Below, in pieces: positions 7,760 to 62,932 of a stretch of 64,000 bases of DNA. This stretch comes from an uncultured virus (IMG/VR IMGVR_UViG_2822120212_000001) (Duplodnaviria > Heunggongvirae > Uroviricota > Caudoviricetes). The stretch covers positions 1 to 64,000 of the IMG/VR virus record IMGVR_UViG_2822120212_000001; one strand, given 5' to 3'. The position numbers were made by a program, and so were the translations under genes. The notes under the pieces are model-generated. The model was not told the DNA's origin. It was given only the letters and a program-made list of their open reading frames with translations, and searched no databases. Each line of letters begins with the position of its first letter. The first letter of the stretch is position 1.

Positions 7760-7818
7760 TGTTTAATCTCCTTTGGTGTATTAATTCATAAATAAAAGCA
7801 CTCTCTCGAGTGCCCATT

Positions 7819-8163
7819 TTATGCAGATACAGCAACTTTATCTTTACGGAAGATACCCATTAATCCGCCGATTAATAATAATACTCCTGGTAATAAGTAA
7901 ATCAGAGATATACAAATAAAGCCTCCGATAGCAGCAACAGTCATCATGATACCGCCAACTTTCGCTTTACCTCTTACCATAACAGAACCAACAATTCCTA
8001 AGATTGATAGTCCTACAGCGCCCCAACCTAATCCGATAATCGTATTTGCACCATCAGCTTCGAAAGCTGCTCCCATACCACCGATTAATAGTGCAACAAA
8101 TGCACAAATAATACCAAAAATACCACCAATAAGTCCTAATACAAATTCAGCTGTTCGTTTCAT
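7819..8163 (-). CDS. DUF4064-like membrane protein
   Basis: MKRTAEFVLGLIGGIFG start; four TM segments. Confidence 0.75.
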   Translation of the reverse strand: MKRTAEFVLGLIGGIFGIICAFVALLIGGMGAAFEADGANTIIGLGWGAVGLSILGIVGSVMVRGKAKVGGIMMTVAAIGGFICISLIYLLPGVLLLIGGLMGIFRKDKVAVSA

Positions 8164-8181
8164 GTTTAACTCCCTATATAA

Positions 8182-8823
8182 TTATTTAGATTTAAAGAAT
8201 ACTTTATTTTGTTTTTGAGTTTCAAATTGAATCGTAAAGTCATCACCAGTATTTACAACTTGTGAAATGTAACCTTCGCCTTCAGCACCTTTGTATAATT
8301 TTTGATGTAACTGGTTAGGTGTTACAGCGGATAGTTCATGATTATATACTTGTCCTTCTTTTGATACTAATTTAAAGTTCATATCAGACAGTAAATATTC
8401 AAAGTCTTGTGTTTCAGCATCTACTACTTTCCCTTTTACTTTAACTAATACCCATTCTTTTCCCTCAGGAGCAGGTTCGTTGAATTCATTTTCTTTTTTT
8501 AGAATTCCAAAAGCTTGTTCACCACGTACAACTTCTAAAATGGAAACTTCAACTTTCGCTTTGAATTTCTTAAATTCTCCACCGTCAGTATTTAAAATAA
8601 CATCGTCTATAGAAGCAGTTTCATTAAATGCTATAGGATTAGAACGGTTACCCTTAGCAGATTCTGTTTTTCCTTCTTTTGAATTATTTTTTTTTGTTTC
8701 TTGTTTTGGTTGCTCTTTTTCTTTTGTTTCTACTCCATTACTAGTCTTCTCGTTAGATCCGCATGCAGCTAAACTAAAAGCAAGTGCTCCTGTCAAAGCG
8801 ATTGTACCCAATTTCTTATACAT
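8182..8823 (-). CDS. Lipoprotein, DUF4352-like
   Basis: Lipobox LAAC; NPI...APEGKEWVLVKVK motif typical of phage immunity-region lipoproteins. Confidence 0.75.
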   Translation of the reverse strand: MYKKLGTIALTGALAFSLAACGSNEKTSNGVETKEKEQPKQETKKNNSKEGKTESAKGNRSNPIAFNETASIDDVILNTDGGEFKKFKAKVEVSILEVVRGEQAFGILKKENEFNEPAPEGKEWVLVKVKGKVVDAETQDFEYLLSDMNFKLVSKEGQVYNHELSAVTPNQLHQKLYKGAEGEGYISQVVNTGDDFTIQFETQKQNKVFFKSK

Positions 8824-13019: not shown

Positions 13020-13713
13020 TGTGGCTAAGACTAAAGAATTAGTTGGTACTTTAGAAAAAGACTTAGTTATAAATCAATTGACTAATTTGTACTTGGTTCA
13101 GGAAAAGATACCTAATATAAATAACAGTAAAATTCCAGAAATTAAAGAAAATAGTGTTGGACGAAGAACTCCGAAGTTTACCAGTAGAACGTATGCGGAA
13201 GTCTATAGAGATATGCTATTTAACGAGAATTATAATTTGTTGTTAAATGATGATTCTATAATTGATTTCCATTATGAATTCAATGATGAAGGGAAAATAA
13301 TAGGGCATAATTTATCATTCATTCCGGGACTTGATGCAGAAATAAGCTTAAATGAAGATATGTATAATATGGAAGATCAAATTATTATTTTAACAACAGC
13401 AACAAATTATCTAAGGATAGATTATGATTTAACAGGAAAAAAGGACATTGTTCACACAGATGTTCATATGCACTATGGTTTGTTTGAAAGAGGAGAAAAA
13501 GGGGAGGGATTACTTTCAGAGCTAAGGGTACCGATAGAAGGTATTTTGTATCCTTATGAGTTTATATATATTGTTCTTAAATATATATATGACGTTAGCG
13601 ATGATGATCTGCAATTCCTGTTAGATTTTGAGTACAGTAAAAAGCATTGTCTTGAAGAATGTGAATTTGATAAACTGATACTTTCCTTTGATAGAAAGTC
13701 CTATCAGTATTGA
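13012..13713 (+). CDS. DUF2290-like protein
   Basis: YLRIDYD...HTDVHMHYG...LRVP motif; coupled to the helicase. Confidence 0.7.
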   Translation: MINVAKTKELVGTLEKDLVINQLTNLYLVQEKIPNINNSKIPEIKENSVGRRTPKFTSRTYAEVYRDMLFNENYNLLLNDDSIIDFHYEFNDEGKIIGHNLSFIPGLDAEISLNEDMYNMEDQIIILTTATNYLRIDYDLTGKKDIVHTDVHMHYGLFERGEKGEGLLSELRVPIEGILYPYEFIYIVLKYIYDVSDDDLQFLLDFEYSKKHCLEECEFDKLILSFDRKSYQY

Positions 13714-14097: not shown

Positions 14098-14135
14098 GGC
14101 ACGTTTTCCTTTATGGGGTTTACGTGTCTTTTGTT
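14098..14135 (+). terminator. Attenuator-like terminator just upstream of the aimR RBS
   Basis: GGCACGT...ACGTGTC followed by TTTTGTT. Confidence 0.55.
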
Positions 14136-14153
14136 CCGGCAAGGAGGAGCAAA

Positions 14154-15326
14154 ATGAAATATTGGTTATTTAAAGTTGTTGATCAAATTGATTTTCAAAA
14201 AAAGAGCCAAGAGAGTATTTCAAAAGAACTTGGAATAAGTGGCCCTGCGTTTTCAAAGAATTTATCAGGGAAAAGTGAATTGAATTTTTTAAATGTAGTA
14301 AAGTTAGTTGAATTATTATATGAAGATCCGCTTGAAAAGAATTATATGATCCATGAATTTTGTAAAAAAACTAAAAGTAAAAAGAATTTAAGAATAGCTA
14401 TGGAGTATGGAAATGCTTTAGGGGATTTGGAACTCCTTAGAATCGCGATTCAAAGAGGCTTTGAATCTAATAACTCTAAAACTTACGAATGGGCATATAT
14501 ATATGAACTCGTTTGGTTAAGAGCTAAGAAATTTTTTACAGCTGAAAAACTTTTAACGGAGACTGAGAATAGGAAAAAGAGTAAAGTTCTTAAAAATGAA
14601 GAAACTAAAATAATGTTTGATATTTTAACATTATATTCTATGTATGATTGTAGGGATTTTAAACTTTTAGATGGGTATATACAAACATTACAGGAAAAAA
14701 TATCTGAACTTCCTAGCCAATTTATAAAAGATATATACAGTAGCCGTGTAAAGGAATGGTATGCGTATGCATTGCTAATGGACGAGCAAATAGAAAAATC
14801 AAGAGAACTATGCCATAGTATATTGAATGTTAATGATGAATTAGGTTATTTAAGGTTATTAAAAATTTCTGCATTAGGATATTTAGGTGAATCATACGTT
14901 GAAAATTATGAACAATCTTTATGGTATTTAAATAAAGGGATTGAGATGCTAGACCAACTATCTTATGAGAAAGCAGAAAACCGAAAAAAAGAGTTTTTAA
15001 ATATGAGGTCTTACATTAGAATAATCCATCAAAAGGATATGTATGATTTACAAATTTTTGATGTGGGCGAGAAAGCGCTTCTATATATAGTAACAGGAGA
15101 AAAAGAAAAAGCTGCCACTATATTAAGAAAGTACGAAAAAGAGAATGGTAGTCTGTCTCCAATGAAATTATGTTATTTAGGAATGGCATTGGAAGATAGA
15201 AAATTACTAGAAAAATCAATTGAGTTATTCTACTCGCAAGGGTGTAAATTTTATAGTTATTTACCTCGAAAAATATTGGTAGATATTAATGAAAATGGTA
15301 TAATATACAAGGGTGATGCTAAATGA
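14154..15326 (+). CDS. aimR: Arbitrium receptor (HTH + TPR, RRNPP family)
   Basis: N-terminal HTH, KKNLRIAMEY motif, helical repeats; followed by a secreted peptide gene; next to the repressor; AAGGAGG RBS. Confidence 0.85.
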   Translation: MKYWLFKVVDQIDFQKKSQESISKELGISGPAFSKNLSGKSELNFLNVVKLVELLYEDPLEKNYMIHEFCKKTKSKKNLRIAMEYGNALGDLELLRIAIQRGFESNNSKTYEWAYIYELVWLRAKKFFTAEKLLTETENRKKSKVLKNEETKIMFDILTLYSMYDCRDFKLLDGYIQTLQEKISELPSQFIKDIYSSRVKEWYAYALLMDEQIEKSRELCHSILNVNDELGYLRLLKISALGYLGESYVENYEQSLWYLNKGIEMLDQLSYEKAENRKKEFLNMRSYIRIIHQKDMYDLQIFDVGEKALLYIVTGEKEKAATILRKYEKENGSLSPMKLCYLGMALEDRKLLEKSIELFYSQGCKFYSYLPRKILVDINENGIIYKGDAK

Positions 15327-20777: not shown

Positions 20778-21899
20778 ATGGCAGATGTAAAATGGATAAA
20801 ACTCTCTACTAGCATGTTTGAAGATGAAAAGATTCGATTGATTGAAAGTTTACCAGATGCAGACACACTACTAATCATTTGGATTAAGTTGTTGTCTCAA
20901 GCGGGCAGAACAAATGCCAATGGTTACATTTTCTTGAGTGAAAACATTCCTTTCACAGAAGAAATGCTTTCAACACTTTTTAATAGACCGATAGCAACTG
21001 TGAGACTTGCATTACAAACGTTCAAACAGTTCGGAATGATAGACATCACTGATGATCAGTACATATGCATCTCGAATTGGGAAAAGCATCAAAACGTTGA
21101 TGGATTAGAAAAAATCCGCGAACAAAACAGATTACGTAAGCAAAAACAAAGAGAGAAAGAAAAACAGTTTCTATTAGGGAATGACATGGGTACATGTGCC
21201 TATTGCGGAAATGTAGCAAAAACACTAGATCATCTAATTCCTAAATCGCATGGTGGATTGGATACTCAAGAAAATTGCGTAGCGTGTTGTAAACGATGTA
21301 ATGAAATGAAAACAAATCGTCCTTTAGAAGTCTTTCTTAATGAATGTTTACTGTTAGGAACACCGGTGTTGGATTTGAAGTCGGTTTTAAATAACAAGAA
21401 AATCATGAGTTTAGTTGACTATCAAGACGGAAAATTTTTACGTCCTGTGACAGGTCACGTGACACGTCACGGTAGTCACGCAACAGATATAGAAGAAGAT
21501 AAAGAATTAGATAAAGAAAAAGATAAAAAGAAGAAAGAAAAAACTTCTCGTCACAAGTTTGAAACTTGCGACATCAACGGGGCTAAGTATTTGTTTGAAA
21601 AAATTAAGGGTAACAATCCTAAACAAAAAGAGCCTAACTTCGATACTTGGTCTAATGATTTTAGATTGATGCGTGAAAAAGATAATCGTGAATTACAAGA
21701 GATTAAAGATGTTATTGATTGGTGCCAAGCAGATCCGTTTTGGCAGGGGAATATCTTATCCGCTAAAAAGCTACGTGAAAAGTTCGATCAATTGACAATT
21801 CAAATGAATTCTAAAAAGGGAGCGAAGAGCAATGCAGAGAGCGGCAGCAGCAATACCAACCGATATAGCCAAAAAGGTGAATATGACTATGGATTCTGA
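20778..21899 (+). CDS. Phage replisome organizer/initiator with an in-frame HNH domain
   Basis: WIKL..MFEDEKIRLIE N-terminus; CAYC..DHLIPKSHGG...NCVACCKRCN; C-terminal FWQGNILSAKKLREKFDQL. Confidence 0.9.
   Translation: MADVKWIKLSTSMFEDEKIRLIESLPDADTLLIIWIKLLSQAGRTNANGYIFLSENIPFTEEMLSTLFNRPIATVRLALQTFKQFGMIDITDDQYICISNWEKHQNVDGLEKIREQNRLRKQKQREKEKQFLLGNDMGTCAYCGNVAKTLDHLIPKSHGGLDTQENCVACCKRCNEMKTNRPLEVFLNECLLLGTPVLDLKSVLNNKKIMSLVDYQDGKFLRPVTGHVTRHGSHATDIEEDKELDKEKDKKKKEKTSRHKFETCDINGAKYLFEKIKGNNPKQKEPNFDTWSNDFRLMREKDNRELQEIKDVIDWCQADPFWQGNILSAKKLREKFDQLTIQMNSKKGAKSNAESGSSNTNRYSQKGEYDYGF
21448..21481. repeat. GTCACG/GTGAC repeats, likely lytic origin iterons
   Basis: GTGACAGGTCACGTGACACGTCACGGTAGTCACGC inside the initiator gene, followed by an A-rich tract. 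Confidence 0.6.
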
Positions 21900-22641
21900 T
21901 GTGTGCGATACACATGGAATGAATAAGATGAAGTTCGGTGGACAAGTTGTTTGCCCTCGATGCTTCCTTGAAAACGAAAGTAATAAGCTTCAGCAACAGG
22001 AACAAGCGAAATATGATGCGGATAAGGCGAATGAGAAGAAGTTCATGTTCCATCAACAAAGTTTGATCGCCGATAGCAACATTAAGAAAGCTAACTTTGA
22101 TAACTATCAACCTACTAGCGAGGAAGGAGCGAAGAACCTAGAACTCGCAAAGGTCATCGCAACAGATTACCTCAATAGAAAGGTATTTAATACAATTATG
22201 GCCGGGAATTGCGGAGCAGGGAAAACACATCTTGCTTACGCTATAGCGGAAGAACTTGCAGGTACGGGGATATCAGTTGTCTTCGTCACAGTTGGTGAAT
22301 TGCTACGGAAGATTAAAAGTACGTTTAATAAAGATTCCTCCTTAACTGAGGATTCAATCATTCGAACGCTAGTAAGAGCAGATGTATTAATAGTCGATGA
22401 TTTGGGAGCAGAGTTAGGGGCCCTCGATGCGAATACAAAGGCAACAAACTTCATTAATAGGGTATTATTTGATGTTTTTGATGGTAGGCAGGGTAAATCT
22501 ACCATATTCACGACAAACCTCACAGGAGAGCGTCTAGAAGGCGCATATGATGAACGAATTGTATCACGTATCTTCAATAACTTTAGAGCGATTGTTTTCA
22601 AAGATACAAAGGATTACAGAAGAAAAGCATTGCCATTTTAA
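21832..22641 (+). CDS. DnaC/IstB-like helicase loader
   Basis: GNCGAGKTHLA, IVDDLGAE, TIFTTN. Confidence 0.9.
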   Translation: MQRAAAAIPTDIAKKVNMTMDSDVCDTHGMNKMKFGGQVVCPRCFLENESNKLQQQEQAKYDADKANEKKFMFHQQSLIADSNIKKANFDNYQPTSEEGAKNLELAKVIATDYLNRKVFNTIMAGNCGAGKTHLAYAIAEELAGTGISVVFVTVGELLRKIKSTFNKDSSLTEDSIIRTLVRADVLIVDDLGAELGALDANTKATNFINRVLFDVFDGRQGKSTIFTTNLTGERLEGAYDERIVSRIFNNFRAIVFKDTKDYRRKALPF

Positions 22642-39928: not shown

Positions 39929-42900
39929 ATGGAATTATTCAAGATGTTTGGGTCAATCTTCTTAAAAGACGATCAGTTACAAAGAGGGTTGACTAATGCT
40001 GAAAGAAGCGGACAGAGAACTACTGGCATTTTAGGGCGTGGATTTGGACAAGTCGGGCAAGCGGCAGTTGGACTAGGGGCTTCTGTCGGAGGGGCAGCCA
40101 TTGCAATTGGTGGATTAGTAGGTATAGCTGTCGGTGTAGGTGCAGCTATTGCTGGTGTAGTTCATGTTGGTTCTGAGTATACGAAACAAATGTCAAAGGT
40201 AGAAGCGCTTTCTCGTTCAAACGGACTACAAATGGCTGAGCTTGGAGCTAATGCACGCAAATTAGGTGCTGAAACACGTTGGTCAGCTACAAACGTAGCT
40301 CAAGCCTATGAATATATGGCTCTTGCAGGTTGGGATTCTAACCAAATGATTGCAGCTAGTAAACCACTACTTGACTTAGCGACTGCTGGTGCGCTAGACC
40401 TTGCAAAAGCGAGTGACATTGTGACTAATTTTATTGGTCAGTTGCTAGGAAACTAGCTTCTAAAAATATCAGGTGAATTGCTGGAAGCCCTCCTTTATAT
40501 GGGTAATCAGCAGCCAAGCTTCACAGGGATGTGAAGAAGGTTCAACGACTAACACACGGAGTCTAGAACAGACAGTAAAGTGACACGAGCGCCTGACACC
40601 TTAACAGGAAATCTGAAGGTGATGATATAGTCTGAACTTACGCGATGGAAAAGTGTAAGAGGTAAAGGATAAAGAACCTTTACGATAACAAATTGGATAC
40701 AATGACTCCATTCGGAATGAAAGCTTCAGAAGCAGGACGAGCAGCTGATGTATTCGCATTAGCCCAAGCGACTGCTAATTTAAACGTTGAACAGCTTGGC
40801 GAGACTATGAAATATGCAGCTCCTGTAGCTGCTACATTCGGTTTAAACATCGAACAAACAGCTGCAATTGCTCAGATTTTTGCAAATAACGGTATTAAAG
40901 CTTCTATGGCTGGTACTGCATTACGTGCTGGCTTATCTCGATTAGCTGCACCGCCAAAAGAAGCGGCTAAATCATTATCAGCATTAAATGTGACAGTTAA
41001 AGATTCACAAGGTAACTTGAAACCAATGAATGAAATCATCGGGCAATTACACGATGGGTTTGGGAAGTTAACTGATGCTCAACAAATCGCTGCTGCAAAA
41101 GCAATTTTCGGTGAAGAAGCGTATGCGGGATGGATTCAAGTTATTAAGGGTGGTAAACCTGCCTTTGATGATATGGTAAATAACCTCGAAACAGCTGAAG
41201 GTTCTGCAAAAGTTATGGCTGAAACAATGGCAAATAACTTATCAGGCGCAGTCGATGGCGTTAAATCACAATTAGAAAATTTAGGACTTGTTGTTTTCTC
41301 GCACGTTGAGCCAGCACTTGTCGCAATGACAAACGGAACTAATAGTGCTGTTAAATCTCTTACTGACTGGCTTGATCCATCTGGGCGTGCTGTTGAAGCA
41401 GCTAAATTAATGCAACAAACTGATCAGCAGTTAGCCCAATCTAAAGCTATTCTTGATATGAATCTTAAAAAGGGGAAGATAACGCAACAAGAGTATAATG
41501 AAAAGCTAGCTTTGGCTAAGAAGCACGCTGAAGATATGATGAACGCAGATGGTATGTTAGCTCAGAAAAAAGAAGAGTTAAAAATGAAGGTCGAGGAAGG
41601 GTCCATGACTCAAGAGGAAGCCAACAAAATCCTCGATCAATCTGAAGTTGAATATCAAAAACTCCAACAAGGTATTGAACAAACGAGACAACGACAAGAA
41701 GCCATGAATAAAGTATTCGAACCACTTCGTGATGCGATTGGCATCATCCAACAAGTCGGCGCTGCTATTGAGCAATTCTGGATTGCGGCAACTGGGGATA
41801 GAAATGCACTGGTTGAAGGTTATGACATACTTACCAAACTAGGCTTTTCAGCTAATGCGATTCAGTTTATACAAGAAACTGCCGCTGCTGTGCAGTATGG
41901 CATAGAAACCATGAAAGCACTGATATCAGGGGACTGGGGAGCTGCTAGCAATTTCTTAGATAAGTTAGGGTTTTCACCTGAACAAAAAGCGAATATTATC
42001 ATGTTTGTTCAAGATGTACATGCTCAAATAAGTAATTTTATAGCGAATATGCAATCTGTAATATCCGCAGCTGCTCCTGTGATCATGGGAATTATCGGTG
42101 CAACGATAGATTTTATCAAAAATGTATGGGGCACAATCCTTCCATACGTGATGCCGTTACTAACTGATGTTCTTAACTTTGTGAACGGAATAATCTCGCA
42201 AATAGCTGCATTTTGGCAACAAAACGGTAACCAAATAGTACAAGCTGTACAAAATGCGTTTTCAATCATTCAATCTATTATAGCTTTTGTGATGCCAGTC
42301 GTGATGTCAATTGTACAATCTACCTGGTCTGCTATAAAAGATATTATCCAGGGTGCCGTAAATCTCATTATGGGGATTATAAAGCTTTTCGCATCTGTTT
42401 TAACCGGCGATTTTTCTGGAATGTGGGAAGGAATAAAGCAGATTTTTAATGGAGCCATCCAATTAATTTGGGGGCTTATTCAATTTGTGTTCGTTAAACA
42501 AATATTTAGTGCTGTAAAAGGGCTGGCATCTTCCTTTGGTTCTACGATTAGTAGTATGTGGTCTACTGTTGTTGGGTATTTCCAGACATTTATCAAGGAA
42601 CCAATCGCTTCTGTAGTTCGCATGGCATTTGATATCGGTGAAGCTGCCATGAAAATTAAAGACAAACTTATCAATCCGATTAAAGAAGCCTGGAGTGGAA
42701 TTATGGGTTGGATTGATAAAATTAAAAACGGTGTAGCGAATATGTTCAGCGGTATTCACATTCCAGTACCTAAAATCAGTGTAAATGGTTCTTTGAATCC
42801 TACGAAATGGGCAAGTGAAGGTCTACCATCTTTCGATGTTAAATGGGCAGCAAATGGCGCGTTAATCAAGCCTGGTAACCCTACACTTGTGGGCGTTGGC

Positions 42901-43134
42901 GATGCGCGTGGGTACGATGAAACAGTATTACCATTGCGTAAGCAAACGTTTGATGCTATCGCCAATGGAATCATGAGTTCATTACCATTAAAGCAACAGC
43001 AAGGAGCGCAATATGCATCGCAAGGGCCAACTGTTTTGCAAATTAATTTAAATGGCAGAGAAATAGCAAAAGAAATTTACTCTGATGTTAATGAATTCCA
43101 AGAACGCAAGAAAGAAAGATTGAAAGTATTTTAG
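39929..43134 (+). CDS. Tape measure protein, two exons (39929-40426 + 40696-43134; 978 aa spliced)
   Basis: TP901-type core; splicing restores ..ASDIVT|DTMTPFG.. in frame. Confidence 0.92.
40427..40695 (+). ncRNA. Group I self-splicing intron, 269 nt, no homing endonuclease
   Basis: P1 UGACU/GGUCA with U40426.G40436; P AAUUGCUGGAA 40476, Q AAUCAGCAGC 40505, R GUUCAACGACUAA 40540, S GAUAUAGUCU 40624; terminal G40695. Confidence 0.95.
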
Positions 43135-53902: not shown

Positions 53903-55069
53903 ATGGGAATCATCAAAGAATGGCTTCATAAACAAAGTTTAAAGAATCAACTTATAGAGGTATTTGGAAAAGCGGGTTTATATGTGGACCATCAAACTAG
54001 GGGTGGGAAAGTCCCAATTTACCCGAAGATACATGATATATCCTCTTCGAAAGAAAAGGTTCGATATATATTCACCATTCCGAACGGTTTGGATCCAAAG
54101 ACTATTGAAAAGAAATGGTTTTGCTTTCAACAAATATTAGGGAGGAATGTAGCGATTGAAGGTGATATTAAAAAGTTTGTGCTCAATGTGTTTCATTCAG
54201 ATGCAGGACTACAAACATACAATTACAGTTATAAGAAATGGCAGCCATTATTAAAACGGCATCGTCTTCCTGTTGTGGTAGGTCGGGACCAATTTGGGAA
54301 CATGATTGTGTATGACATGGTTGAAGCAAATACACCACATTTACTCATTGCAGGTGAAACAGGGAGTGGTAAAAGTAGTATGGTACGTGTTGTTCTTTCC
54401 ACACTCATTCAATATATGTCTCCTGAAAAGTTGCATTTATACCTGGGTGACTTAAAAAACTCTGAATTTCATTTCTTGAGAAGAGTCAAACATGTAAAAG
54501 AGGTTTGCATGGAAGAAATCGAAATGAAAATCATGCTTCAGAAAGTGTGGAAGGAAATACGCGAACGTAGAAAGTTGATGGAAGAGTATGAAGTGGATCA
54601 CATTGATGAATACAACAAATTGAATCCTGGTAATCAGAAACCATATCTCTTACTTGCTATTGATGAAGTAGCGATGCTTCAAGATGAAAAGGAATGTATG
54701 TCCACAATTGAAAAGATATCGGCAGTCGGTAGGGCGCTCGGTGTCTTCCTCATGCTTAGTATGCAACGTCCTGACGCAAAAGTATTAGATGGTAAGTTAA
54801 AATTGAATATGACCGTAAGAATGGGCTTTAAATGTGCCGATACAATCAATAGCAACATCGTGGGTACACCTGGATCAGAACACTTGGAGCAATCGGGCCA
54901 AATGATTTTAAAATTAAATGGTTTAAAGAAAGTTCAAGCTCCATTTTTAGAATTAAGCAAAGCGAAACAAATTGTAGGACCTTATCGTATTCCGAAAGAG
55001 GATATAACGCTTCAGAATCCTCCACAAAAAGAAAATAAATTGTTTGGGGTGTTAGATTATGAACAGTAG
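53903..55069 (+). CDS. FtsK/SpoIIIE-family ATPase (no gamma domain)
   Basis: PHLLIAGETGSGKS, DLK, IDE, GRALG, QRP. Confidence 0.9.
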   Translation: MGIIKEWLHKQSLKNQLIEVFGKAGLYVDHQTRGGKVPIYPKIHDISSSKEKVRYIFTIPNGLDPKTIEKKWFCFQQILGRNVAIEGDIKKFVLNVFHSDAGLQTYNYSYKKWQPLLKRHRLPVVVGRDQFGNMIVYDMVEANTPHLLIAGETGSGKSSMVRVVLSTLIQYMSPEKLHLYLGDLKNSEFHFLRRVKHVKEVCMEEIEMKIMLQKVWKEIRERRKLMEEYEVDHIDEYNKLNPGNQKPYLLLAIDEVAMLQDEKECMSTIEKISAVGRALGVFLMLSMQRPDAKVLDGKLKLNMTVRMGFKCADTINSNIVGTPGSEHLEQSGQMILKLNGLKKVQAPFLELSKAKQIVGPYRIPKEDITLQNPPQKENKLFGVLDYEQ

Positions 55070-55667
55070 AGACAAAGTGATACTAGGCGATTTGAAACGT
55101 TTCAGATGTATGTCGCGCGATGATATTATAGATTTGCATTTTCATGGAGTAAAAAACGCAGTTACTTGCTGTAATACTGTTATGAAACGATTGAGAAGAG
55201 ACGGCCATGTGGATGCCAATATCACACAGCAGCCATTTGTATATTTTCCTCAACCTAGCACACTTCGAAAAACTAGCCAAAAGATTCCACACTTCCTCGG
55301 TATTGTGGATATATATAAACAGCTTATCCATTATGAAAAACCTAAACTATTTAAAGTAGAACCAAAATACGGAAAGGATTATATGGAACCTGATGCATTT
55401 ACAATATGGCGCAGATCTCCATTCTTCATCGAAGTCCAGAAGTCGGTTTACAGTAAAAAAGTTATGCAGGATAAAATCAACAGGTATGAATTATATTTTC
55501 GCAGTCAGGAATGGCATAACGAGTCATGGCAGCCAAAAGGTTCTAAATTTTTCCCGTCAATCCTCATTATTACTGATAAGCAGTATGATATTAGTTCTTC
55601 TAACTTACGAGTCTTTCAAGCTTCTTCAATTAGCAATTTCATAGATAGTATTGCTGTTAAAGCATAA
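55059..55667 (+). CDS. Replication-relaxation family protein (wHTH + PD-(D/E)xK-like)
   Basis: MKRLRRDGHV HTH, HFL, EPDA...FIEVQ; overlaps the FtsK gene. Confidence 0.8.
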   Translation: MNSRDKVILGDLKRFRCMSRDDIIDLHFHGVKNAVTCCNTVMKRLRRDGHVDANITQQPFVYFPQPSTLRKTSQKIPHFLGIVDIYKQLIHYEKPKLFKVEPKYGKDYMEPDAFTIWRRSPFFIEVQKSVYSKKVMQDKINRYELYFRSQEWHNESWQPKGSKFFPSILIITDKQYDISSSNLRVFQASSISNFIDSIAVKA

Positions 55668-57748: not shown

Positions 57749-57809
57749 TTAATCCGTGTATTTAAGTAAGTGGAAGAAAGTTGATTAGGTATAGATATAT
57801 TAAAAAAAA

Positions 57810-57860
57810 GTGGAAATATAGAAATATCCCTATTTCTAAATAGGGATATTTCTATATTTT
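57810..57860. repeat. Centromere-like AAATAGGG/ATAGAAAT cluster downstream of the par operon
   Basis: Same units as 59086-59428, in inverted arrangement. Confidence 0.7.
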
Positions 57861-58234
57861 TAAATCTCTGTTAATAGCTTGAATTTCCTTTTCTGTTCAG
57901 GTGTTAGCTCATTTTCTACATAGCGATCTATAAGTAAATCGATGATCTCATAAGCAAATTTTGTGTTTGTAAGTTTCATTAATACTTCTAGTTCTTCTTT
58001 TGATTGATTAGAAATTTTAATGCTACCTTGTTGATTTTTAAATTTCTTTTTTGATTCAATTTTTTCGTTTCTTTTTTCTTTTCGAGTTACTTGTTTTTCT
58101 TCAGTCTTAGGTTGAGAAGGCGTAGCTGGAACCTCGTTATTTTCCACTACAGCTTGTCCTTGCTCTGGTACATAAGGCTCAGTAGGTTCAAAGTTACTTT
58201 TCTTTCTACCTAACAAACCAGGAGTTCTCGCCAT
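57860..58234 (-). CDS. Centromere-binding adaptor of a type Ib partition system
   Basis: Directly after parA; disordered N-terminus, RHH-like C-terminus. Confidence 0.75.
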   Translation of the reverse strand: MARTPGLLGRKKSNFEPTEPYVPEQGQAVVENNEVPATPSQPKTEEKQVTRKEKRNEKIESKKKFKNQQGSIKISNQSKEELEVLMKLTNTKFAYEIIDLLIDRYVENELTPEQKRKFKLLTEI

Positions 58235-58235
58235 T

Positions 58236-59057
58236 TTACACACCAACCTTCATTTTTTCAAACATATCAATACGAGATAGCAATTCATCACTAATCGTTT
58301 CGTATAGTTCAATTACATTCATATCATGTCTATCTTTTTCAGTAATACCATTCACATCAAATCGTTTAATACGTTCCATTTGAGGGACGATGTTTTTAAA
58401 TAGGTTTTCTTCACCGAAAATTTCACGAGCATTTTCCATGATATATTCGTCAACCTTACCGTTGTTTTTTAATAGGACAGGAAGAACACCAACTACTTCA
58501 ATATCAAGATCATATTGCTCTTTTAGCTTAATAAGTTCATTAACATAATTCTCAGCACCAGTTAGAGAACGCTCTTGAGTTTGCAAAGCAATTAGAACAT
58601 AATCAGAAGCTACAACGGCGTTCTTTGTAACTTCTAGTGACATTGGAGGAACATCGATAAATATGTAGTCGTATTTATGCTTTATCTTTTCAAGTAATCC
58701 TTTAAAGTAATGATCTTCTTCAGCTTCCGAAGAACAATTTTTATAAAGGAATTTTGCGAAATCTTGAAAATCAACGTAAGAAGGAAGTAAATGTAAGTTC
58801 TCCATAATTTCCACTTCTAAGCCGTCTAGGTTCCCCTCTTGTATTCCCTTCATTAATGTTTTTTCTACTGTAACAATTTCATCAGGGTTAAGAATGGATT
58901 TTGTTAACATTAAAGACTTTGTTGCGTTACTTTGTGGATCAAGGTCAACAAGTAATGTACGCTTGCCCTTTTTAGCAAATTCATAAGAGTTCAATACAGC
59001 ATTTGTGGTTTTACCGACTCCACCTTTGTAATTACCTACCGTAATTGTAATAGCCAT
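58236..59057 (-). CDS. parA: ParA/Soj Walker-type ATPase
   Basis: KGGVGKTT, DLDPQSNAT, IFIDVPP. Confidence 0.93.
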   Translation of the reverse strand: MAITITVGNYKGGVGKTTNAVLNSYEFAKKGKRTLLVDLDPQSNATKSLMLTKSILNPDEIVTVEKTLMKGIQEGNLDGLEVEIMENLHLLPSYVDFQDFAKFLYKNCSSEAEEDHYFKGLLEKIKHKYDYIFIDVPPMSLEVTKNAVVASDYVLIALQTQERSLTGAENYVNELIKLKEQYDLDIEVVGVLPVLLKNNGKVDEYIMENAREIFGEENLFKNIVPQMERIKRFDVNGITEKDRHDMNVIELYETISDELLSRIDMFEKMKVGV

Positions 59058-59085
59058 TTTTAACACTCCAGTTATATTATTTAAA

Positions 59086-59428
59086 ATTTCCCTATATCCC
59101 TTTATAGAAATAGGGAAAAATAGAAATAGGGAAATAGGGATATTTCTAACTATAGAAATAGGGATATTTCTATATCTTTAAAGAAATTATAACAATGATA
59201 TTTGGGTTATGCAATAGAATCATAGAGTTAGTAATTAATAACAAAAACGTTGGTATCAAAAGATTATTTTGATGTATGAAGTAGAGAGAGTTAAGAAACA
59301 AATATGTAATTTCGTAGAGATGTTAGTAGAGGCAAAAATAATTAAAATAGGGAAATATAGATATAGGGAAAAGGGGAAATATCCCTATATCTATAAGTGG
59401 AAATAGGGAAATAGGGAAATAGGGATAT
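59086..59428. repeat. Centromere (parS/parC)-like 8-bp repeats, two clusters (59086-59175, 59346-59428)
   Basis: Tandem and inverted AAATAGGG units around the parA upstream region. Confidence 0.8.
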
Positions 59429-59594
59429 TATTCAAAAAGTGCGTAAATTCGCTGTTTACAAAGGATAAAGCTTGTTGTAACGTAGTACACAACAAGCACC
59501 ATTCTACAAAACAAAACATAATTTGATATTTTACATAAACGAAGATCATGAAGATCGATAGAGCAAAATCAAAACAATTGAATATGAACAGAAA

Positions 59595-59768
59595 ACAAAA
59601 AGCCACTCCATTTGCTATCGGCTACCAACCTTTAGCGGAGTGACTCAGTTCTAGTAATTGCTACCAACACTTACTAGAATGAACTGTATTAACCCACAGT
59701 GTTTACGTTTAAGTAGTGTACCATCACTTTCTTAAACAACTATGCCTTTTCACGAGGCTTCTTTGATA
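59595..59768 (-). ncRNA. Antisense (copy-control-like) RNA, ~170 nt
   Basis: Minus strand TTGATA-N17-TAAAAT (59802-59774); two hairpins with GTTGGTAGC loops; GTCACTCC/GGAGTGGC stem + U-tail. Confidence 0.7.
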
Positions 59769-59850
59769 TACCCATTTTATCTATTGTTTGGATAAATATC
59801 AACTAGTAAATACTAGTTTTGATTATTTTGTAGTCCAAAAGATATATAAC

Positions 59851-59922
59851 GGGCATCTCTAAGCCTAGAAGTCTTGTGATGTACAGGCCATTTAGGGAAT
59901 TAGAGATGCCTTTTTGTTTTTT
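59851..59922 (+). terminator. Attenuator terminator
   Basis: GGCATCTCTAA...TTAGAGATGCC then TTTTTGTTTTTT; alternative partner AGGCTTCTTTGA at 59755-59766. Confidence 0.7.
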
Positions 59923-59924
59923 GT

Positions 59925-60470
59925 TCGCGTGGAATTGCCTGAAACCACGTAAATAAAACTGATAAGCCGTGATTCCGTGCTTCTATATAGAGGGAACGTG
60001 TTACGGCGTGGCTAGCTGTTGGTCGTGCAGGGGGTACAGAGTATACGCCTACAAAAACAGCACCCCTCATTGGAATCCTGTTCTTCTGGTGAGGGTGGGC
60101 GAGAACTTGCCCAGGGACGATTCTCTAAAAGGTTCGGGTGGTTATCGTTAGCATTACGGTGCTAGGGAGTACATTCAGTTTGTCGTGTAGGGACGATATT
60201 ACAAGGACAAGCCATAGTAAAAGGATGTATGCGGTGAAAATCGCTGAGTGAACAGGGTCTATACATACGGATACCTTATAAGTGACCGCATGGCGAAAAC
60301 AAAGACGCTTATCCATCTATTTTGACTGATTACTTTTTTTGTAGTCTTTCAAAGTAGGGGATAAATCTGCCTTCCAGCCGTATTCCATAATCGTTCCCAC
60401 ATGATAAAAACCCTCAAGACCTTCAGTCAAGCGTAACTGTGAAGAAAGGATGAAAAACATGAGTTTGTTT
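59925..60470 (+). ncRNA. Large structured non-coding region (candidate replication RNA/origin)
   Basis: GC-richer than flanks, no credible ORF, many hairpins incl. UACG and GAAA tetraloops, GATAAGC/GCTTATC long-range stem. Confidence 0.5.
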
Positions 60471-60827
60471 AACTTTTGGGGGAATGACTTACTAAGATAG
60501 AGGAATAAATAAGGGATTTACTATTTACTTGGTTAAAGGATAAGGGGACGGATGATTAAAATATTTCCTATTGCAGAATTTGGTTTTACATATCGGATAT
60601 AGTACGTGAAATTAAACTTATATAATTTTAGTTTGATTGGTATATGGTGATATTCTAGCAGTTGATGAAAAAGCACGTTGAGAAGTGATGAAGTAAACAG
60701 AAAAAATATTGTTAGAAGATGTAGTGGTTAACCTCAGTAAACAAAAATTAACTTTTATTGTATATTTTGAAAATAGATATTAATTAAGGTAATCTTAATT
60801 TAAACTAATAAGGGGAGGGATATCATT

Positions 60828-61769
60828 GTGAAAGTATTTAAATTAACTACAGAAAGTCATGCTCTTTTAGATTTGAATGAACAGAGCTGGGAAACTACTA
60901 TTGCTTATTATGAGAAGGAAACTCATAAGAGAGCGCCCTATTATTGTGATCTAAAAAAGAAAACCAGATATTTTGCTGTTTGTCCTGGTTGTAATAATCC
61001 GGTTCAATTAGTAAATTTGTATGTTAATAAGAAATTACCAGGCAACGAAAAGAAGCAATCCCCACATGCTAAACATCAACCGCATTCAGTTATTGGAATA
61101 GCAACCTATTATCAAGAAAAGTACGATACCTGTGAATTGAGACAGAGAACACCCTTCAGTGATACTGAGAAAAGAGCTGGAACGGAAGTACCAAATGAAA
61201 TATTGCAGCTCATACAACGATATCCAGACATTTTATATAAACATATACGAAAAATAATAGGTATCAATTTTTCTAGACGCGTATTTGAGCGCATGATTGA
61301 TAATTTTCTTCGTGCAAATGGACATTGTTATAAGCGTATTAATAAATTTAATTTGCCGTATGCTTTTCTATATATGCAAAAAAGTACAAGAATTATTAAT
61401 CAACATATTACAGAAGGTCATGCTTATCAAAAAGAAATAATTGATTGTATACAAAATAGTAAATATTTTACTGTATCTGATAATAAAATTACACCTATTA
61501 ACCCGAAGGTTGATGGATTTGTAGAAATTGATTTTTACTTAACAAAACATAAAATAACACCAATTAAAAATATGATTACTCTCTGTATTACTGAATCTAA
61601 GGGAGGGGAAGTTGATAGTTTATTAGAAAAGGAATTTCCAGTAAATGAATCTGATTATATAAATGATATCAACGAGGCGATGGACAATGGGGATAATGAA
61701 ATGGATAGTAATAAAGCTAGATCTCAATTGAGAGAGATGGTACTCAATTGCATTGAAAAAAATAAGTGA
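60828..61769 (+). CDS. Hypothetical protein with N-terminal Zn-binding motif (CPGC...H...C)
   Basis: GGAGGG RBS; AT-rich accessory gene; resembles CoiA-type N-termini. Confidence 0.7.
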   Translation: MKVFKLTTESHALLDLNEQSWETTIAYYEKETHKRAPYYCDLKKKTRYFAVCPGCNNPVQLVNLYVNKKLPGNEKKQSPHAKHQPHSVIGIATYYQEKYDTCELRQRTPFSDTEKRAGTEVPNEILQLIQRYPDILYKHIRKIIGINFSRRVFERMIDNFLRANGHCYKRINKFNLPYAFLYMQKSTRIINQHITEGHAYQKEIIDCIQNSKYFTVSDNKITPINPKVDGFVEIDFYLTKHKITPIKNMITLCITESKGGEVDSLLEKEFPVNESDYINDINEAMDNGDNEMDSNKARSQLREMVLNCIEKNK

Positions 61770-62496: not shown

Positions 62497-62932
62497 TATA
62501 TAGATTTATTTATATTTTATCTATATAGTTAAATTGTCTGTTATTTTTTTTAATTCATTTATTTATTTTATTTTTGTGCGCTCCAGCAATGGAGCCTTTT
62601 TTTATGCAATAAAACATTTTCTTTGCGTTATTTAGTTGATCTATATTAACTTTACCTTCTTAAATTATATCTATATTTTACCAAGTAATTATATAGATAA
62701 CCAGTTTTTTCTAATAATCTATTTGATAAATAACTTTAATGTTATTTATTATTTGTATATTATTATGTTATAATGGTAATCTCTAAAACTACCCAAAAAA
62801 GGCTGCCAGTAATGGTGGTCTTTTTTATATTGGTGAGATTGTACTAGTATGATAGAATAGAATTAACTGTATATTGTGAGGGTGATTGGTTATCCCTTCT
62901 TTCCATTTGGAAGGAAAGGGGGTGATATACCT

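What the first reader, a model, noticed from the sequence alone, without database searches (positions are those of the whole stretch)
59450..60470. Candidate Rep-less, RNA-based replicon: an antisense attenuator gates a large structured non-coding RNA next to parA
Seen: (i) a weak + strand promoter (TTTACA-N17-TAACGT, ~59455); (ii) a strong minus-strand sigma-A promoter (TTGATA-N17-TAAAAT, 59802-59774) giving a ~170-nt RNA with two GTTGGTAGC-loop hairpins and a terminator; (iii) a + strand terminator (59851-59922) whose 3' arm TTAGAGATGCCT (59900-59911) can instead pair with AGGCTTCTTTGA (59755-59766), which the antisense RNA would cover; (iv) downstream, no rep ORF but ~500 nt of GC-richer hairpins (60061-60097, 60097-60112, UACG loop 60149-60164, GAAA loop 60231-60244) inside a GATAAGC(59961)/GCTTATC(60307) stem. 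Known: this layout is the antisense-driven attenuation used for copy control by pIP501/pT181-type plasmids, where a rep gene follows. Inference: here the read-through RNA itself is the product, for example a replication primer or R-loop RNA that maintains the plasmid-prophage.
Basis: partly seen in the sequence, partly recalled or inferred. Interest (0 to 1): 0.88.

Follow-up and report, generated by a model that had tools for sequence, protein, structure and literature searches.

The report
Folded-RNA replication origin of phage-plasmid
A gene-free kilobase beside the partition genes of this Bacillus phage-plasmid encodes a small antisense RNA, a terminator and a large, intricately folded RNA related to the puzzling initiator-free origin of plasmid pLS20, so it is most likely the unit that lets the prophage replicate as a plasmid.

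Summary
Window 59448-60614 is an ORF-free cassette next to parAB of a B. cereus-group plasmid-prophage. It holds a conserved minus-strand promoter (34 of 36 homologues) for a ~175-nt antisense RNA, a long + strand terminator, and a ~385-nt + strand RNA (59928-60311). That RNA has 13 helices and a pseudoknot: 79 pairs, 96.3% paired, 41 with compensatory changes against 24 in shuffles. No Rfam family matches.

The cassette occurs in 139 PLSDB plasmids and 76 IMG/VR stretches. In five 4.5-11 kb plasmids no initiator gene is recognisable. A covariance model of its core finds, as best hit and on the right strand, the replication module of pLS20 and 6 relatives (E 5.6e-6 to 3e-3). pLS20 is the class E theta replicon, reported to replicate from 1.1 kb without a Rep gene.

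It is a distant variant of a known replicon type whose RNA nature I did not find in the papers I could search.

Not supported: the proposed antiterminator pairing, the GATAAGC/GCTTATC closing stem and the weak + promoter. Four related plasmids carry DnaD-like genes near the cassette, and the phage has its own replisome organiser and a Replic_Relax protein. Independence from any protein initiator is therefore inferred, not shown.

The parts
57860..59066 (-). Partition operon: ParA-type ATPase (58236-59066) and a small adaptor protein (57860-58246), transcribed away from the module
   Evidence: Pfam AAA_31/CbiA/ParA hits, E 3e-39; weak DUF5388 hit for the adaptor; adaptor matches phrog_8975
59080..59430 (.). 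Two clusters of AAATAGGGA iterons (59080-59185 and 59337-59430). A third cluster lies at 57806-57867. These are probable centromere sites bordering the module
   Evidence: the repeat finder families D1 and I1-I25
59448..60614 (+). The whole conserved ORF-free cassette, i.e. the proposed plasmid replicon
   Evidence: Block boundaries of 88-92% identity in 9 IMG/VR loci and B. pseudomycoides. 139 PLSDB records match. No conserved ORF
59455..59497 (+). It overlaps a hairpin at 59470-59497 that looks like a terminator on the minus strand
   Evidence: Sequence; minus-strand terminator-like site. Conserved only in the phage-plasmid subfamily
59590..59767 (-). Antisense RNA of about 175 nt: 5' hairpin (59744-59758), loop hairpins 59651-59677 and 59604-59642 (the second is also the terminator stem), then a U-tract complementary to 59590-59602
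   Evidence: Alignment of 17 representatives. A C-A mismatch on the + strand is a G-U pair on the - strand, read. Hairpin 59744-59758
59774..59802 (-). Antisense promoter, -35 TTGATA and -10 TAAAAT
   Evidence: 34 of 36 homologues reach 9 or more of 12 at the aligned place
59803..59816 (.). Conserved palindrome CTAGTAAATACTAG just upstream of the antisense -35. Possibly an operator or an RNA hairpin
   Evidence: Conserved in the alignments; its function was not tested
59851..59926 (+). Attenuator: a long intrinsic terminator (stem 59851-59911, T-run 59911-59923, then GTTC)
   Evidence: -29.3 kcal/mol in the window; formed in 15 of 15 representatives. The arms differ in sequence between homologues yet keep pairing
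59928..60311 (+). Core structured RNA. Helices: H1 59928-59949; variable insertion hairpin 59964-60008; H3 60015-60061; H4 60031-60050; H5 60064-60095; H6 60097-60112; H6b 60113-60126; UACG hairpin 60149-60164; H9 60169-60230; H10 60178-60212; H11 60187-60202; GAAA hairpin 60231-60244; H13 60245-60250 with 60306-60311
   Evidence: 79 pairs, 96.3% of cells paired, 41 pairs with compensatory change against 24.0 +/- 2.9 in shuffles (0 of 500), covariation 0.390 against 0.05-0.08 for slid partners. RNAalifold gives 68 pairs, 32 compensatory. Pairing is 96.3% on the + strand and 82.8% on the - strand, with 214 G-U cells
60143..60198 (+). Pseudoknot: 60143-60147 (TATCG) pairs with 60194-60198 (CGATA) in the loop of H11
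   Evidence: 5 pairs, 100% paired; 4 of 5 switch together (TAGCCA/TGGCT) in 4 of 20 sequences (helix 7)
60308..60365 (.). Inverted repeat CTTATCCATCTA / TAGGGGATAAA around a T-rich 35-nt spacer. The arms are invariant in the family and resemble DnaA boxes (7 of 9). Candidate site of initiation
   Evidence: Alignments. DnaA boxes are not enriched. The pLS20 family has a covarying 20-bp inverted repeat with a T-rich loop at the same place
60401..60431 (-). Conserved promoter-like site TTGACT-18-TATCAT pointing into the inverted repeat. The motif AGTCAAG (60425-60431) is also kept in the pLS20 family and BTB_15p
   Evidence: 27 of 36 homologues reach 9 or more of 12; weak nhmmer matches at this motif; alignment

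Best explanation
Window 59448-60614 is the plasmid-state replicon of this siphovirus plasmid-prophage. It is a distant variant of the class E theta replicon typified by oripLS20, and it works through RNA rather than through a dedicated Rep protein.

Shown here:
- It is ORF-free.
- It encodes a conserved, strongly promoted antisense RNA of about 175 nt. That RNA overlaps the 5' leader of a + strand transcript.
- A long intrinsic terminator follows the leader.
- Behind the terminator lies a 385-nt pseudoknotted RNA under strong structural selection on the + strand.
- Behind the RNA lies an invariant inverted repeat with a T-rich spacer.
- The RNA core is homologous in structure to the core of the pLS20 replication module.

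Inferred:
- Most sense transcripts stop at the attenuator.
- The antisense RNA, whose level follows copy number, raises that fraction or misfolds the leader, giving negative copy control. In part of the family a 'preemptor' inside the antisense target is complementary to the 5' arm of the terminator, as in pT181 and pIP501.
- Read-through transcripts fold into the core RNA. At the adjacent inverted repeat they seed initiation by host proteins, as an R-loop or primer or by recruiting the primosome. No plasmid initiator is needed, as is reported for pLS20.

The adjacent parAB genes and their iterons then segregate the copies. The phage's own replisome organiser and loader at 20778-22641 would serve lytic replication.
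For: Non-coding: none of four ORFs in the core is kept (7, 9, 17 and 10 of 36 homologues lack an internal stop), and there is no third-position bias.

Structure: 79 pairs, 96.3% paired, 41 compensatory against 24.0 +/- 2.9 (0 of 500 shuffles), and a pseudoknot with 4 of 5 covarying pairs. The strand is + (96.3% against 82.8% paired).

Control elements: the antisense promoter is kept in 34 of 36 homologues. The terminator is present in 15 of 15 representatives. Complementarity between a preemptor and the terminator's 5' arm at equivalent positions 59694-59750 gives z -5.2 (L003), -4.8 (L019) and -3.2 (L002).

Replicon role:
- The cassette is in 139 PLSDB records, 76 of them with 80% or more coverage, and in 76 IMG/VR stretches.
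- It fills the large gene-free gap of plasmids of 4.5-8.5 kb.
- One of these is a 4,632-bp Paenibacillus contig with a 77-nt terminal overlap. Its only sizeable ORFs are a 189-aa protein without family, an HTH protein and a resolvase.
- Pfam finds no plasmid Rep family in 87 ORFs of 7 such plasmids. PHROGs finds no replication initiator in 30 ORFs of 6 of them.

Homology to pLS20: model R1, built from this family only, has its best hit in 70.6 kb at pBamB1895 753-901, on the + strand, between alp7A and rap (E 0.0014). It hits 6 of 6 further pLS20-family origins at the same place, including pLS20 itself at NC_015148 65186-65335 (E 5.6e-6 to 3e-3). That lies inside the published module 64501-65745 (PMC8557374, passages read). 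In those six hits 92.9% of cells pair and 9 pairs have compensatory changes against 2.9 +/- 1.3 (0 of 500). The order of parts is the same: long terminator, H1-like hairpin with a UGCC loop, AAATAAACTGA, GGCGAGRAC, UACG hairpin, P9, GNRA hairpin, inverted repeat with T-rich loop, AGTCAAG.

Literature (passages read): oripLS20 is about 1.1 kb, lacks a replication gene and has an unknown mechanism (PMC8557374, section 18 read in full). It replicates in a polA strain, and its copy number is unaffected by chloramphenicol (PMC9743546, PMC4490491).

No integrase or Rep lies in the last 1.7 kb of the record.

RNA libraries of relatives hold contigs across the cassette. In X2 a 3598-nt contig covering 59172-60563 has word depth 616, against 107 for the neighbouring parA contig. 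In X12 a 321-nt contig equals 60057-60378.
Against: Nothing here tests replication; the link rests on homology and distribution.

primary-sequence search finds no similarity to the pLS20-family origin (nhmmer E 0.26). The covariance-model E-values are modest and only roughly calibrated.

The window has candidate initiators in trans:
- a Replic_Relax protein at 55059-55667 (phrog_2190 'replication initiation protein', E 8e-59) beside an FtsK-like ATPase;
- a Phage_rep_org_N protein with a DnaC-like loader.

Four related plasmids carry DnaD-like or HTH_36 proteins next to the cassette:
- L002, 422 aa, phrog_7882, E 3e-9;
- L045, 346 aa;
- L001 and L043, 156-164 aa.

All 7 small plasmids compared share a protein of about 190 aa and unknown family. 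One member has an Arc-like RHH tail. It is not excluded as an initiator.

The attenuation switch is not visible thermodynamically. The terminator forms in every minimum-energy fold, and the preemptor signal is weak in the window itself (z -1.3). The sense promoter of the window is undefined. DnaA boxes are not enriched (84 found, 97 expected). The RNA-seq data are contigs and show neither strand nor ends nor that the cassette is transcribed.
Confidence: 0.68

Rival explanations
1. The cassette is an origin with RNA copy control, but it is not Rep-less. A DnaD-like or Replic_Relax-type protein supplied in trans or from a neighbouring gene opens the inverted repeat. The RNA only provides control or a primer, as repE mRNA does in pAMbeta1.
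For: DnaD-like genes lie directly upstream of the control leader in pBAslCI14 (phrog_7882, E 3e-9) and BTB_15p (phrog_7882, E 8e-12; RepA_N, E 9e-4). HTH_36/DnaD_N-like proteins are present in L001 and L043. The window encodes Replic_Relax and Phage_rep_org_N with a DnaC-like loader. The inverted-repeat arms are invariant, as protein binding sites are.
Against: No such protein was found in 5 small plasmids (L042, L005, L006, L020, L044). No protein family is shared by all carriers. The homologous pLS20 module is reported to replicate alone (PMC8557374, PMC9743546; passages read). The DnaD-like genes differ in size and position, and in L043 the gene is convergent with the cassette.
Confidence: 0.2
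2. The large RNA has a job other than replication, for example regulating lysogeny or partition, or acting as an anti-defence or other trans-acting RNA like the large prophage RNAs ROOL and GOLLD (recalled). It merely travels with plasmid backbones.
For: No Rfam family matches, so no known function is attached. It is widespread on phage-plasmids with variable neighbours. BTB_15p keeps the control leader but swaps the RNA payload, as a cargo module might.
Against: It fills the only large non-coding gap of 4.5-8.5 kb plasmids that must hold an origin somewhere. It is homologous to the core of a minimal replicon defined by experiment (PMC8557374). Its position next to the partition genes is constant in two distant families.
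Confidence: 0.08
3. The folds act in single-stranded DNA: a single-strand origin of a rolling-circle element started by the nicking-type Replic_Relax protein.
For: phrog_9381 'replication initiation by nicking' matches the Replic_Relax protein (E 7.6e-12). Single-strand origins are strand-specific and highly structured (established knowledge).
Against: 214 G-U cells and UNCG and GNRA tetraloops point to RNA. Promoter, antisense RNA and terminator make sense only for transcripts. The small plasmids have no rolling-circle Rep. pLS20 is classed as a theta replicon (PMC4490491, passages read).
Confidence: 0.03

Closest known systems
oripLS20, the class E theta replicon of Bacillus subtilis plasmid pLS20 and its family (Meijer et al. 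1995, not held, known only through citations; Val-Calvo et al. 2021, PMC8557374, passages and section 18 read)
   Same: Both are ORF-free modules of about 1.1-1.2 kb lying directly beside divergently transcribed partition genes. They share the order of parts: long terminator with a TTTTTTGTTTG tail, hairpin with a UGCC loop, AAATAAACTGA, UACG hairpin, long-range helix P9, GNRA hairpin, inverted repeat with a T-rich loop, AGTCAAG. The covariance model of this family hits 7 of 7 pLS20-family origins at the same place and strand.
   Different: There is no detectable primary-sequence similarity (nhmmer E 0.26). The internal domain is 37 nt here against about 90 nt there. The inverted repeat has a different sequence: invariant and DnaA-box-like here, covarying there. 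The hosts differ (B. cereus group, Peribacillus, Paenibacillus, Pseudalkalibacillus against the B. subtilis group), and so do the carriers (phage-plasmids and small cryptic plasmids against conjugative plasmids). In the papers I could search I found no description of pLS20's origin as a structured RNA with antisense control: 'oripLS20' gave 1 paper and 'pLS20'+'ColE1'+'RNA' gave 12 papers, none on this by title.
ColE1-type replicons (class B theta: RNA II preprimer and RNA I antisense; established knowledge)
   Same: No plasmid initiator is needed. A long folded sense RNA runs into the origin. A small, strongly expressed antisense RNA is complementary to the 5' end of the sense RNA and ends near its start (geometry).
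   Different: There is no sequence or Rfam relation: the only RNAI match, at 62754-62827, has E 1 and is chance. This module has an intrinsic terminator between leader and core. The related pLS20 is reported as independent of Pol I (PMC9743546). The hosts are Gram-positive.
Antisense-driven transcription attenuation of pT181 and pIP501/pAMbeta1
   Same: An antisense RNA gene lies inside the leader and a terminator lies downstream. In part of the family a segment inside the antisense target is complementary to the terminator's 5' arm.
   Different: No rep gene follows the attenuator. The preemptor is weak in the window (z -1.3), and the switch is not seen in minimum-energy folds.
[quoted passage not shown]
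   Same: It may belong to the same wider group. Bt407 plasmid BTB_15p is 15,189 bp, carries TnpI and a Tn3-family transposase, and has 3.4 copies per cell (PMC3569317). It shares the promoter, antisense and attenuator leader with this cassette (nhmmer E 5.7e-76). That BTB_15p equals pHT1030 is my recollection and guess, not a result.
   Different: BTB_15p has a different 540-nt segment in place of the core RNA, R1 does not hit it, and it carries a DnaD-like gene upstream.

Membership tests
Class E theta replicon (oripLS20 type) | Replication module of about 1.1 kb without a replication gene | tested here: met
   The 1.17-kb conserved block 59448-60614 has no conserved ORF
Class E theta replicon (oripLS20 type) | Lies beside the partition module | tested here: met
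   parAB lies at 57860-59066, divergent. pLS20 and pBamB1895 have alp7A immediately upstream, divergent
Class E theta replicon (oripLS20 type) | Sequence similarity to oripLS20 (the BlastN criterion used by Val-Calvo et al.) | tested here: not met
   nhmmer with the profile of 36 cassettes against pBamB1895 1-1500 gives a best E of 0.26. The blastn hits that were listed were all from the B. cereus group or 3 other genera
Class E theta replicon (oripLS20 type) | Shared RNA core (my criterion, not a published one) | tested here: met
   R1 hits 7 of 7 pLS20-family origins at the same place and strand, E 5.6e-6 to 3e-3. In six of those hits 9 pairs are compensatory against 2.9 in shuffles
Class E theta replicon (oripLS20 type) | Autonomous replication without a plasmid protein; independence from Pol I | not testable with these tools
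   Needs cloning and host mutants
Class E theta replicon (oripLS20 type) | DnaA boxes at conserved positions | tested here: inconclusive
   TTATNCACA with up to 1 mismatch: 84 matches in the window against 97 expected, 3 of them in or near the module. The inverted-repeat arms match at 7 of 9 by my reading
pT181 / pIP501 antisense attenuation | A rep gene downstream of the attenuator | tested here: not met
   No ORF is conserved in 59928-60460. The next gene, 60828-61769, has no family and is not conserved among carriers
pT181 / pIP501 antisense attenuation | A preemptor inside the antisense target that competes with the terminator | tested here: inconclusive
   Partner of the 5' arm at 59694-59750: z -5.2, -4.8 and -3.2 in 3 representatives, about -2 in several others, -1.3 in the window. 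3'-arm partners are not significant. The terminator is always in the minimum-energy fold
ColE1 RNA I / RNA II | Membership of Rfam RNAI or sequence relation | tested here: not met
   There is no match in the module. RF00106 matches only at 62754-62827 with E 1
Any Rfam 15 family | Covariance-model match at the gathering score | tested here: not met
   The only gathering-level hit in the window is the group I intron at 40417-40659. E<=1 hits within or touching the module are SNORD83 60217-60334 (E 0.12) and, upstream in the iterons, TtnuHACA21; both are below their gathering scores
pHT1030 / ori1030 | Sequence identity or similarity to ori1030 | not tested
   No ori1030 sequence is held. Papers naming it gave only vector tables

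The most novel reading that the evidence does not exclude
The covarying, pseudoknotted RNA is itself the initiator of class E replicons: an 'RNA Rep'. After escaping an antisense-gated attenuator it folds next to its own template. Through its conserved purine-rich single-stranded segments and tetraloops it recruits host replication proteins, or invades the adjacent inverted repeat, and so replaces a plasmid initiator protein. The control leader is a portable module that can gate different payload RNAs, as BTB_15p suggests. If so, phage-plasmids and cryptic plasmids across Bacillaceae and Paenibacillaceae share an RNA-only replication system, and the origin of pLS20, described as little understood in 2021, gets a concrete, mutable mechanism.
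Probability: 0.3. Interest if true: 0.88.

Novelty: new variant of a known kind. Interest (0 to 1): 0.72.

Why it matters
Plasmid prophages of the B. cereus group have been described as having partition genes but no clear plasmid replication gene (PMC8026635, passages read). This cassette gives a concrete candidate for how they persist. It also ties them to pLS20, whose initiator-free origin is described as mechanistically unknown (PMC8557374).

A comparative structure is now available: 13 helices, a pseudoknot, an antisense RNA and an attenuator. That makes the open question of how class E replicons start replication directly testable by compensatory mutagenesis.

Practical uses:
- The cassette is a replicon marker missing from current typing. 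MOB-suite gave no replicon type for the small plasmids.
- It is a candidate new Rfam family.
- It is a possible compact, protein-free origin for Bacillus vectors.

Tried and rejected
1. Rfam: nothing in the module at gathering level, and only chance-level hits at E<=1.
2. Single-sequence folding is not informative: z -0.93 and 0.06.
3. fold_alignment on the attenuator region recovered only 5 pairs, because MAFFT does not align arms of different length. I relied on per-sequence folds instead.
4. The closing stem 59961/60307 is rejected.
5. The long-range pairing that RNAalifold proposed between the H1 loop and the 5' arm of H6, and between 60138-60143 and the region after the inverted repeat, was set aside. 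These pairs show only one-sided changes, and the local H6 helix shows double changes.
6. DnaA-box enrichment: none.
8. pLS20cat under AB615352 and pBamB1895 under OK210095 were not found. NZ_OK210095 and NC_015148 were.
9. Meijer 1995 (PMC307180) is not held. The supplement of PMC8557374 was listed but not read. Either may bear on whether transcripts or structures of oripLS20 were described.
10. R1 with default filters found only 1 of 6 pLS20-family origins; all were found with filters off.
11. No R1 hit in BTB_15p.
12. RNA contigs show presence in RNA libraries only. Uncovered parts and depth differences are not evidence of transcript ends.
13. Earlier notes of this scan: nothing by place or by sequence.
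14. Two scripts stopped with a KeyError after printing part of their results. In one search ORF47 and ORF71 were not tested.
Full report
What the window is. The window is bases 1-64000 of a 65,703-base IMG/VR virus record rated complete. Pfam scans of 67 ORFs show a siphovirus with:
- terminase, SPP1-type portal, capsid and tail genes;
- a tape-measure gene interrupted by a group I intron;
- an amidase;
- an arbitrium AimR regulator;
- a Sak annealase, RecU, a Phage_rep_org_N replisome organiser and a DnaC/IstB-like loader (20778-22641).

Near the finding lie an FtsK-like ATPase (53903-55069), a Replic_Relax protein (55059-55667), a MerR/DUF3967 protein, and a ParA ATPase with a small adaptor (57860-59066, minus strand). 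No integrase or recombinase was found in those 67 ORFs. The last 1.7 kb of the record holds only a small protein without family, a DUF5065 protein and a cold-shock protein. The element therefore looks like a plasmid prophage of the kind catalogued for B. cereus sensu lato. In that catalogue only ParA, an RHH adaptor and sometimes a Replic_Relax protein are listed as plasmid functions (PMC8026635, passages read).

Checking the observation. The stretch 59391-60827 has no ORF longer than 71 codons. It contains an island of 46-52% G+C at 59900-60300 in a background of about 30%.

The minus-strand promoter (TTGATA-17-TAAAAT, 59802-59774) is found by the scan. Its aligned position is a good sigma-A promoter in 34 of 36 homologues. 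Leftwards from it lie a 5' hairpin (59744-59758), a hairpin at 59651-59677 and a terminator hairpin at 59604-59642 followed by a U-run. This gives an RNA of about 175 nt. In several homologues one pair of the terminator stem is C-A on the + strand but G-U on the minus strand (read). That fits a minus-strand RNA.

The + strand terminator (stem 59851-59911, then TTTTTGTTTTTTG) is strong, and one exists at the same place in 15 of 15 representatives. The weak + promoter at 59455 is there, but by my count it matches 8 of 12 positions and the scan does not list it.

It is no better than shuffled arms in the window (z -0.8), and the best partner of the 3' arm falls at different places in the other sequences. 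The proposed outer stem uses GATAAGC, which lies inside a 45-nt insertion that the small plasmids lack.

The structured RNA. I collected homologues from several sources:
- PLSDB: 139 records for the 1.1-kb query and 100 for the core;
- IMG/VR;
- species-representative genomes, by a degenerate pattern: 16 loci, including Peribacillus and Paenibacillus;
- one phage record.

Of 36 distinct cassettes, I aligned 20 that are less than 96% identical over 59915-60325. RNAalifold predicts 68 pairs, 32 of them with compensatory changes. I refined this by eye to 13 helices and tested the result with the count of structure pairs:

| Measure | Structure | Control |
|---|---|---|
| Cells forming standard pairs | 96.3% of 1467 | - |
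| Pairs with changes on both sides | 41 of 79 | 24.0 +/- 2.9 in shuffles (0 of 500 as high) |
| Covariation score | 0.390 | 0.05-0.08 when partners are slid by 1-3 columns |

A pseudoknot (60143-60147 with 60194-60198) switches from UAUCG/CGAUA to AGCCA/UGGCU in four sequences, so 4 of its 5 pairs covary. The fold includes a UACG and a GAAA tetraloop hairpin and a variable insertion hairpin. It belongs to the + strand: 96.3% of cells pair there against 82.8% on the complement, and there are 214 G-U cells. None of four ORFs tested in the core is conserved, and substitutions show no codon periodicity. No Rfam 15 family matches. The single-sequence fold energy is unremarkable, so this conclusion rests on the comparison.

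What carries it. Most carriers are 45-90 kb plasmids or viral contigs of the B. cereus group. The same cassette also lies in the one large gene-free gap of small plasmids: pBFC_1 (7.3 kb), two further 7.5-kb plasmids, a 6.9-kb, an 8.5-kb, a 7.5-kb Peribacillus contig and an 11.4-kb Peribacillus contig. It is also on a 4,632-bp Paenibacillus contig whose ends overlap by 77 nt, which would make a 4,555-bp circle.

An all-against-all comparison of ORFs found no protein family shared by all carriers. A protein of about 190 aa is common to the 7 small plasmids but absent from the window and from pBAslCI14. It has no Pfam family. One member has an Arc-like RHH tail.

Pfam found no plasmid Rep family in 87 ORFs of 7 small plasmids. 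PHROGs found no initiator in 30 ORFs of six of them.

Against a blanket 'Rep-less' reading:
- pBAslCI14 and BTB_15p have DnaD-like proteins of 422 and 346 aa just upstream of the leader;
- L001 and L043 have a small HTH_36/DnaD_N-like protein.

Link to pLS20. Papers describe the pLS20 replication module as about 1.1 kb, without a replication gene, next to alp7AR, with DnaA boxes and an unknown mechanism (PMC8557374, section 18 read). It is classed as the class E theta replicon, is independent of Pol I, and is unaffected by chloramphenicol (PMC9743546 and PMC4490491, passages read).

A profile of my 36 cassettes finds no sequence similarity to the origin of pBamB1895, a pLS20-family plasmid (E 0.26). 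I then built a covariance model of the sub-domain 60126-60262, with 138 positions and 30 pairs, from this family alone. Its results:
- Its best hit in 70.6 kb is pBamB1895 753-901, on the + strand, inside the gene-free stretch between alp7A and rap (E 0.0014).
- It then hits six of six further family members at the same place, including pLS20 itself at record positions 65186-65335 (E 5.6e-6 to 3e-3).
- In those six, the long-range helix P9 and the GNRA hairpin covary: 9 pairs with double changes against 2.9 +/- 1.3 in shuffles (0 of 500). That alignment is fitted to the model and holds only 6 sequences.

An alignment of the seven pLS20-family origins shows the same order of parts as here. It also shows, by my reading, a covarying pseudoknot partner (GCACU/AGUGC, UUACU/AGUAA, UGCC/GGCA, GCUU/AAGC) and a minus-strand TTGACG-17-TAAAAT promoter just upstream of the long terminator. 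I therefore regard the cassette as a distant structural relative of oripLS20.

How it probably works. The geometry is that of ColE1, with a pT181-like terminator added. A strongly promoted antisense RNA covers the first 175 nt or so of the sense leader and ends at the A-rich start of that leader. About 85 nt further on, the sense RNA meets a very stable terminator.

In some lineages a segment inside the antisense target (equivalent to 59694-59750) is complementary to the terminator's 5' arm (z down to -5.2). That would be the classical preemptor. In the window this signal is weak, and minimum-energy folds always contain the terminator. The switch is therefore inferred, not shown.

The 5' end of the leader (GAACAG...AAAAAG) is complementary to the tail after the terminator, and it changes with it (GAACGG with CCGTTC in the small plasmids). 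Its role is unexplained.

Read-through RNA folds into the core. The invariant inverted repeat with a T-rich spacer (60308-60365) follows, and a conserved promoter-like site points back into it (60430-60401; 27 of 36 homologues). I infer that initiation occurs there with host proteins. Whether the RNA primes, forms an R-loop or recruits a primosome cannot be told from sequence.

Expression. Logan contigs from four RNA libraries of relatives cover the cassette. In a culture transcriptome (X2) the contig covering 59172-60563 has mean word depth 616, against 107 for the parA contig. A 321-nt contig from a metatranscriptome (X12) equals 60057-60378. Contigs show neither strand nor ends, and DNA carry-over is possible, so this is weak support.

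Novelty. The kind is known: an initiator-free class E replicon. This is a sequence-unrelated variant in other hosts and on phage-plasmids. I did not find the RNA anatomy that I describe for both families in the library I could search. Meijer 1995 and the supplement of PMC8557374 were not seen. Two earlier notes of this scan on other genomes reached a similar reading. They are leads, not independent evidence.

Noticed in passing
window 39929-43134: The tape-measure gene is split by a group I intron. RF00028 matches at 40417-40659 (94.7 bits), between two PhageMin_Tail ORFs (39929-40456 and 40693-43134).
   Followed up: no
window 57806-57867, 59080-59185, 59337-59430: Three clusters of AAATAGGGA iterons with 8-nt period flank parAB, including a perfect 22-nt palindrome at 57814-57859. 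They are probable centromere sites. The Rfam 'mir-368' and snoRNA hits there are artefacts of these repeats.
   Followed up: partly
L045 (NC_018880.1, Bt407 plasmid BTB_15p) 1299-2320: It has the same promoter, antisense and attenuator leader as the window (nhmmer E 5.7e-76). This is followed by a different 540-nt segment of 42-49% G+C with its own tetraloop-like hairpins, then the shared AGTCAAG motif. A DnaD-like 346-aa gene lies upstream. The control leader looks modular.
   Followed up: partly
L002 (NC_014333.1, pBAslCI14) 6972-8240: A 422-aa protein matching phrog_7882 (DnaD-like helicase loader) lies directly upstream of, and on the same strand as, that plasmid's copy of the cassette.
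   Followed up: partly
window 59586-59602 and 59909-59926: The A-rich 5' end of the sense leader is complementary to the U-rich tail plus GTTC after the attenuator, and it changes with it in the small plasmids (GAACGG/CCGTTC). The antisense RNA tail and the attenuator tail are nearly the same sequence.
   Followed up: partly
window 60401-60431: A conserved minus-strand promoter-like site (TTGACT-18-TATCAT) points into the inverted repeat. It could give a short second antisense or primer RNA.
   Followed up: partly
window 59933-59944: The loop of hairpin H1 (AAUUGCCUGAAA) is nearly invariant. Its UGCC is complementary both to the 5' arm of the attenuator and to the 5' arm of helix H6. The pLS20 family has UGCC in the equivalent loop.
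   Followed up: no
window 4982-6691, 10998-13713, 14124-15326: An OLD-like AAA/TOPRIM nuclease, a UvrD-like helicase with a DUF2290 protein (possible defence genes), and an arbitrium AimR regulator.
   Followed up: no
L042 (4,632-bp Paenibacillus contig) and L044 (11,382-bp Peribacillus contig): The contig names give assembly coverages of 265 and 6799, which suggests multicopy plasmids. The chromosomal coverage was not seen, so no copy number can be given.
   Followed up: no
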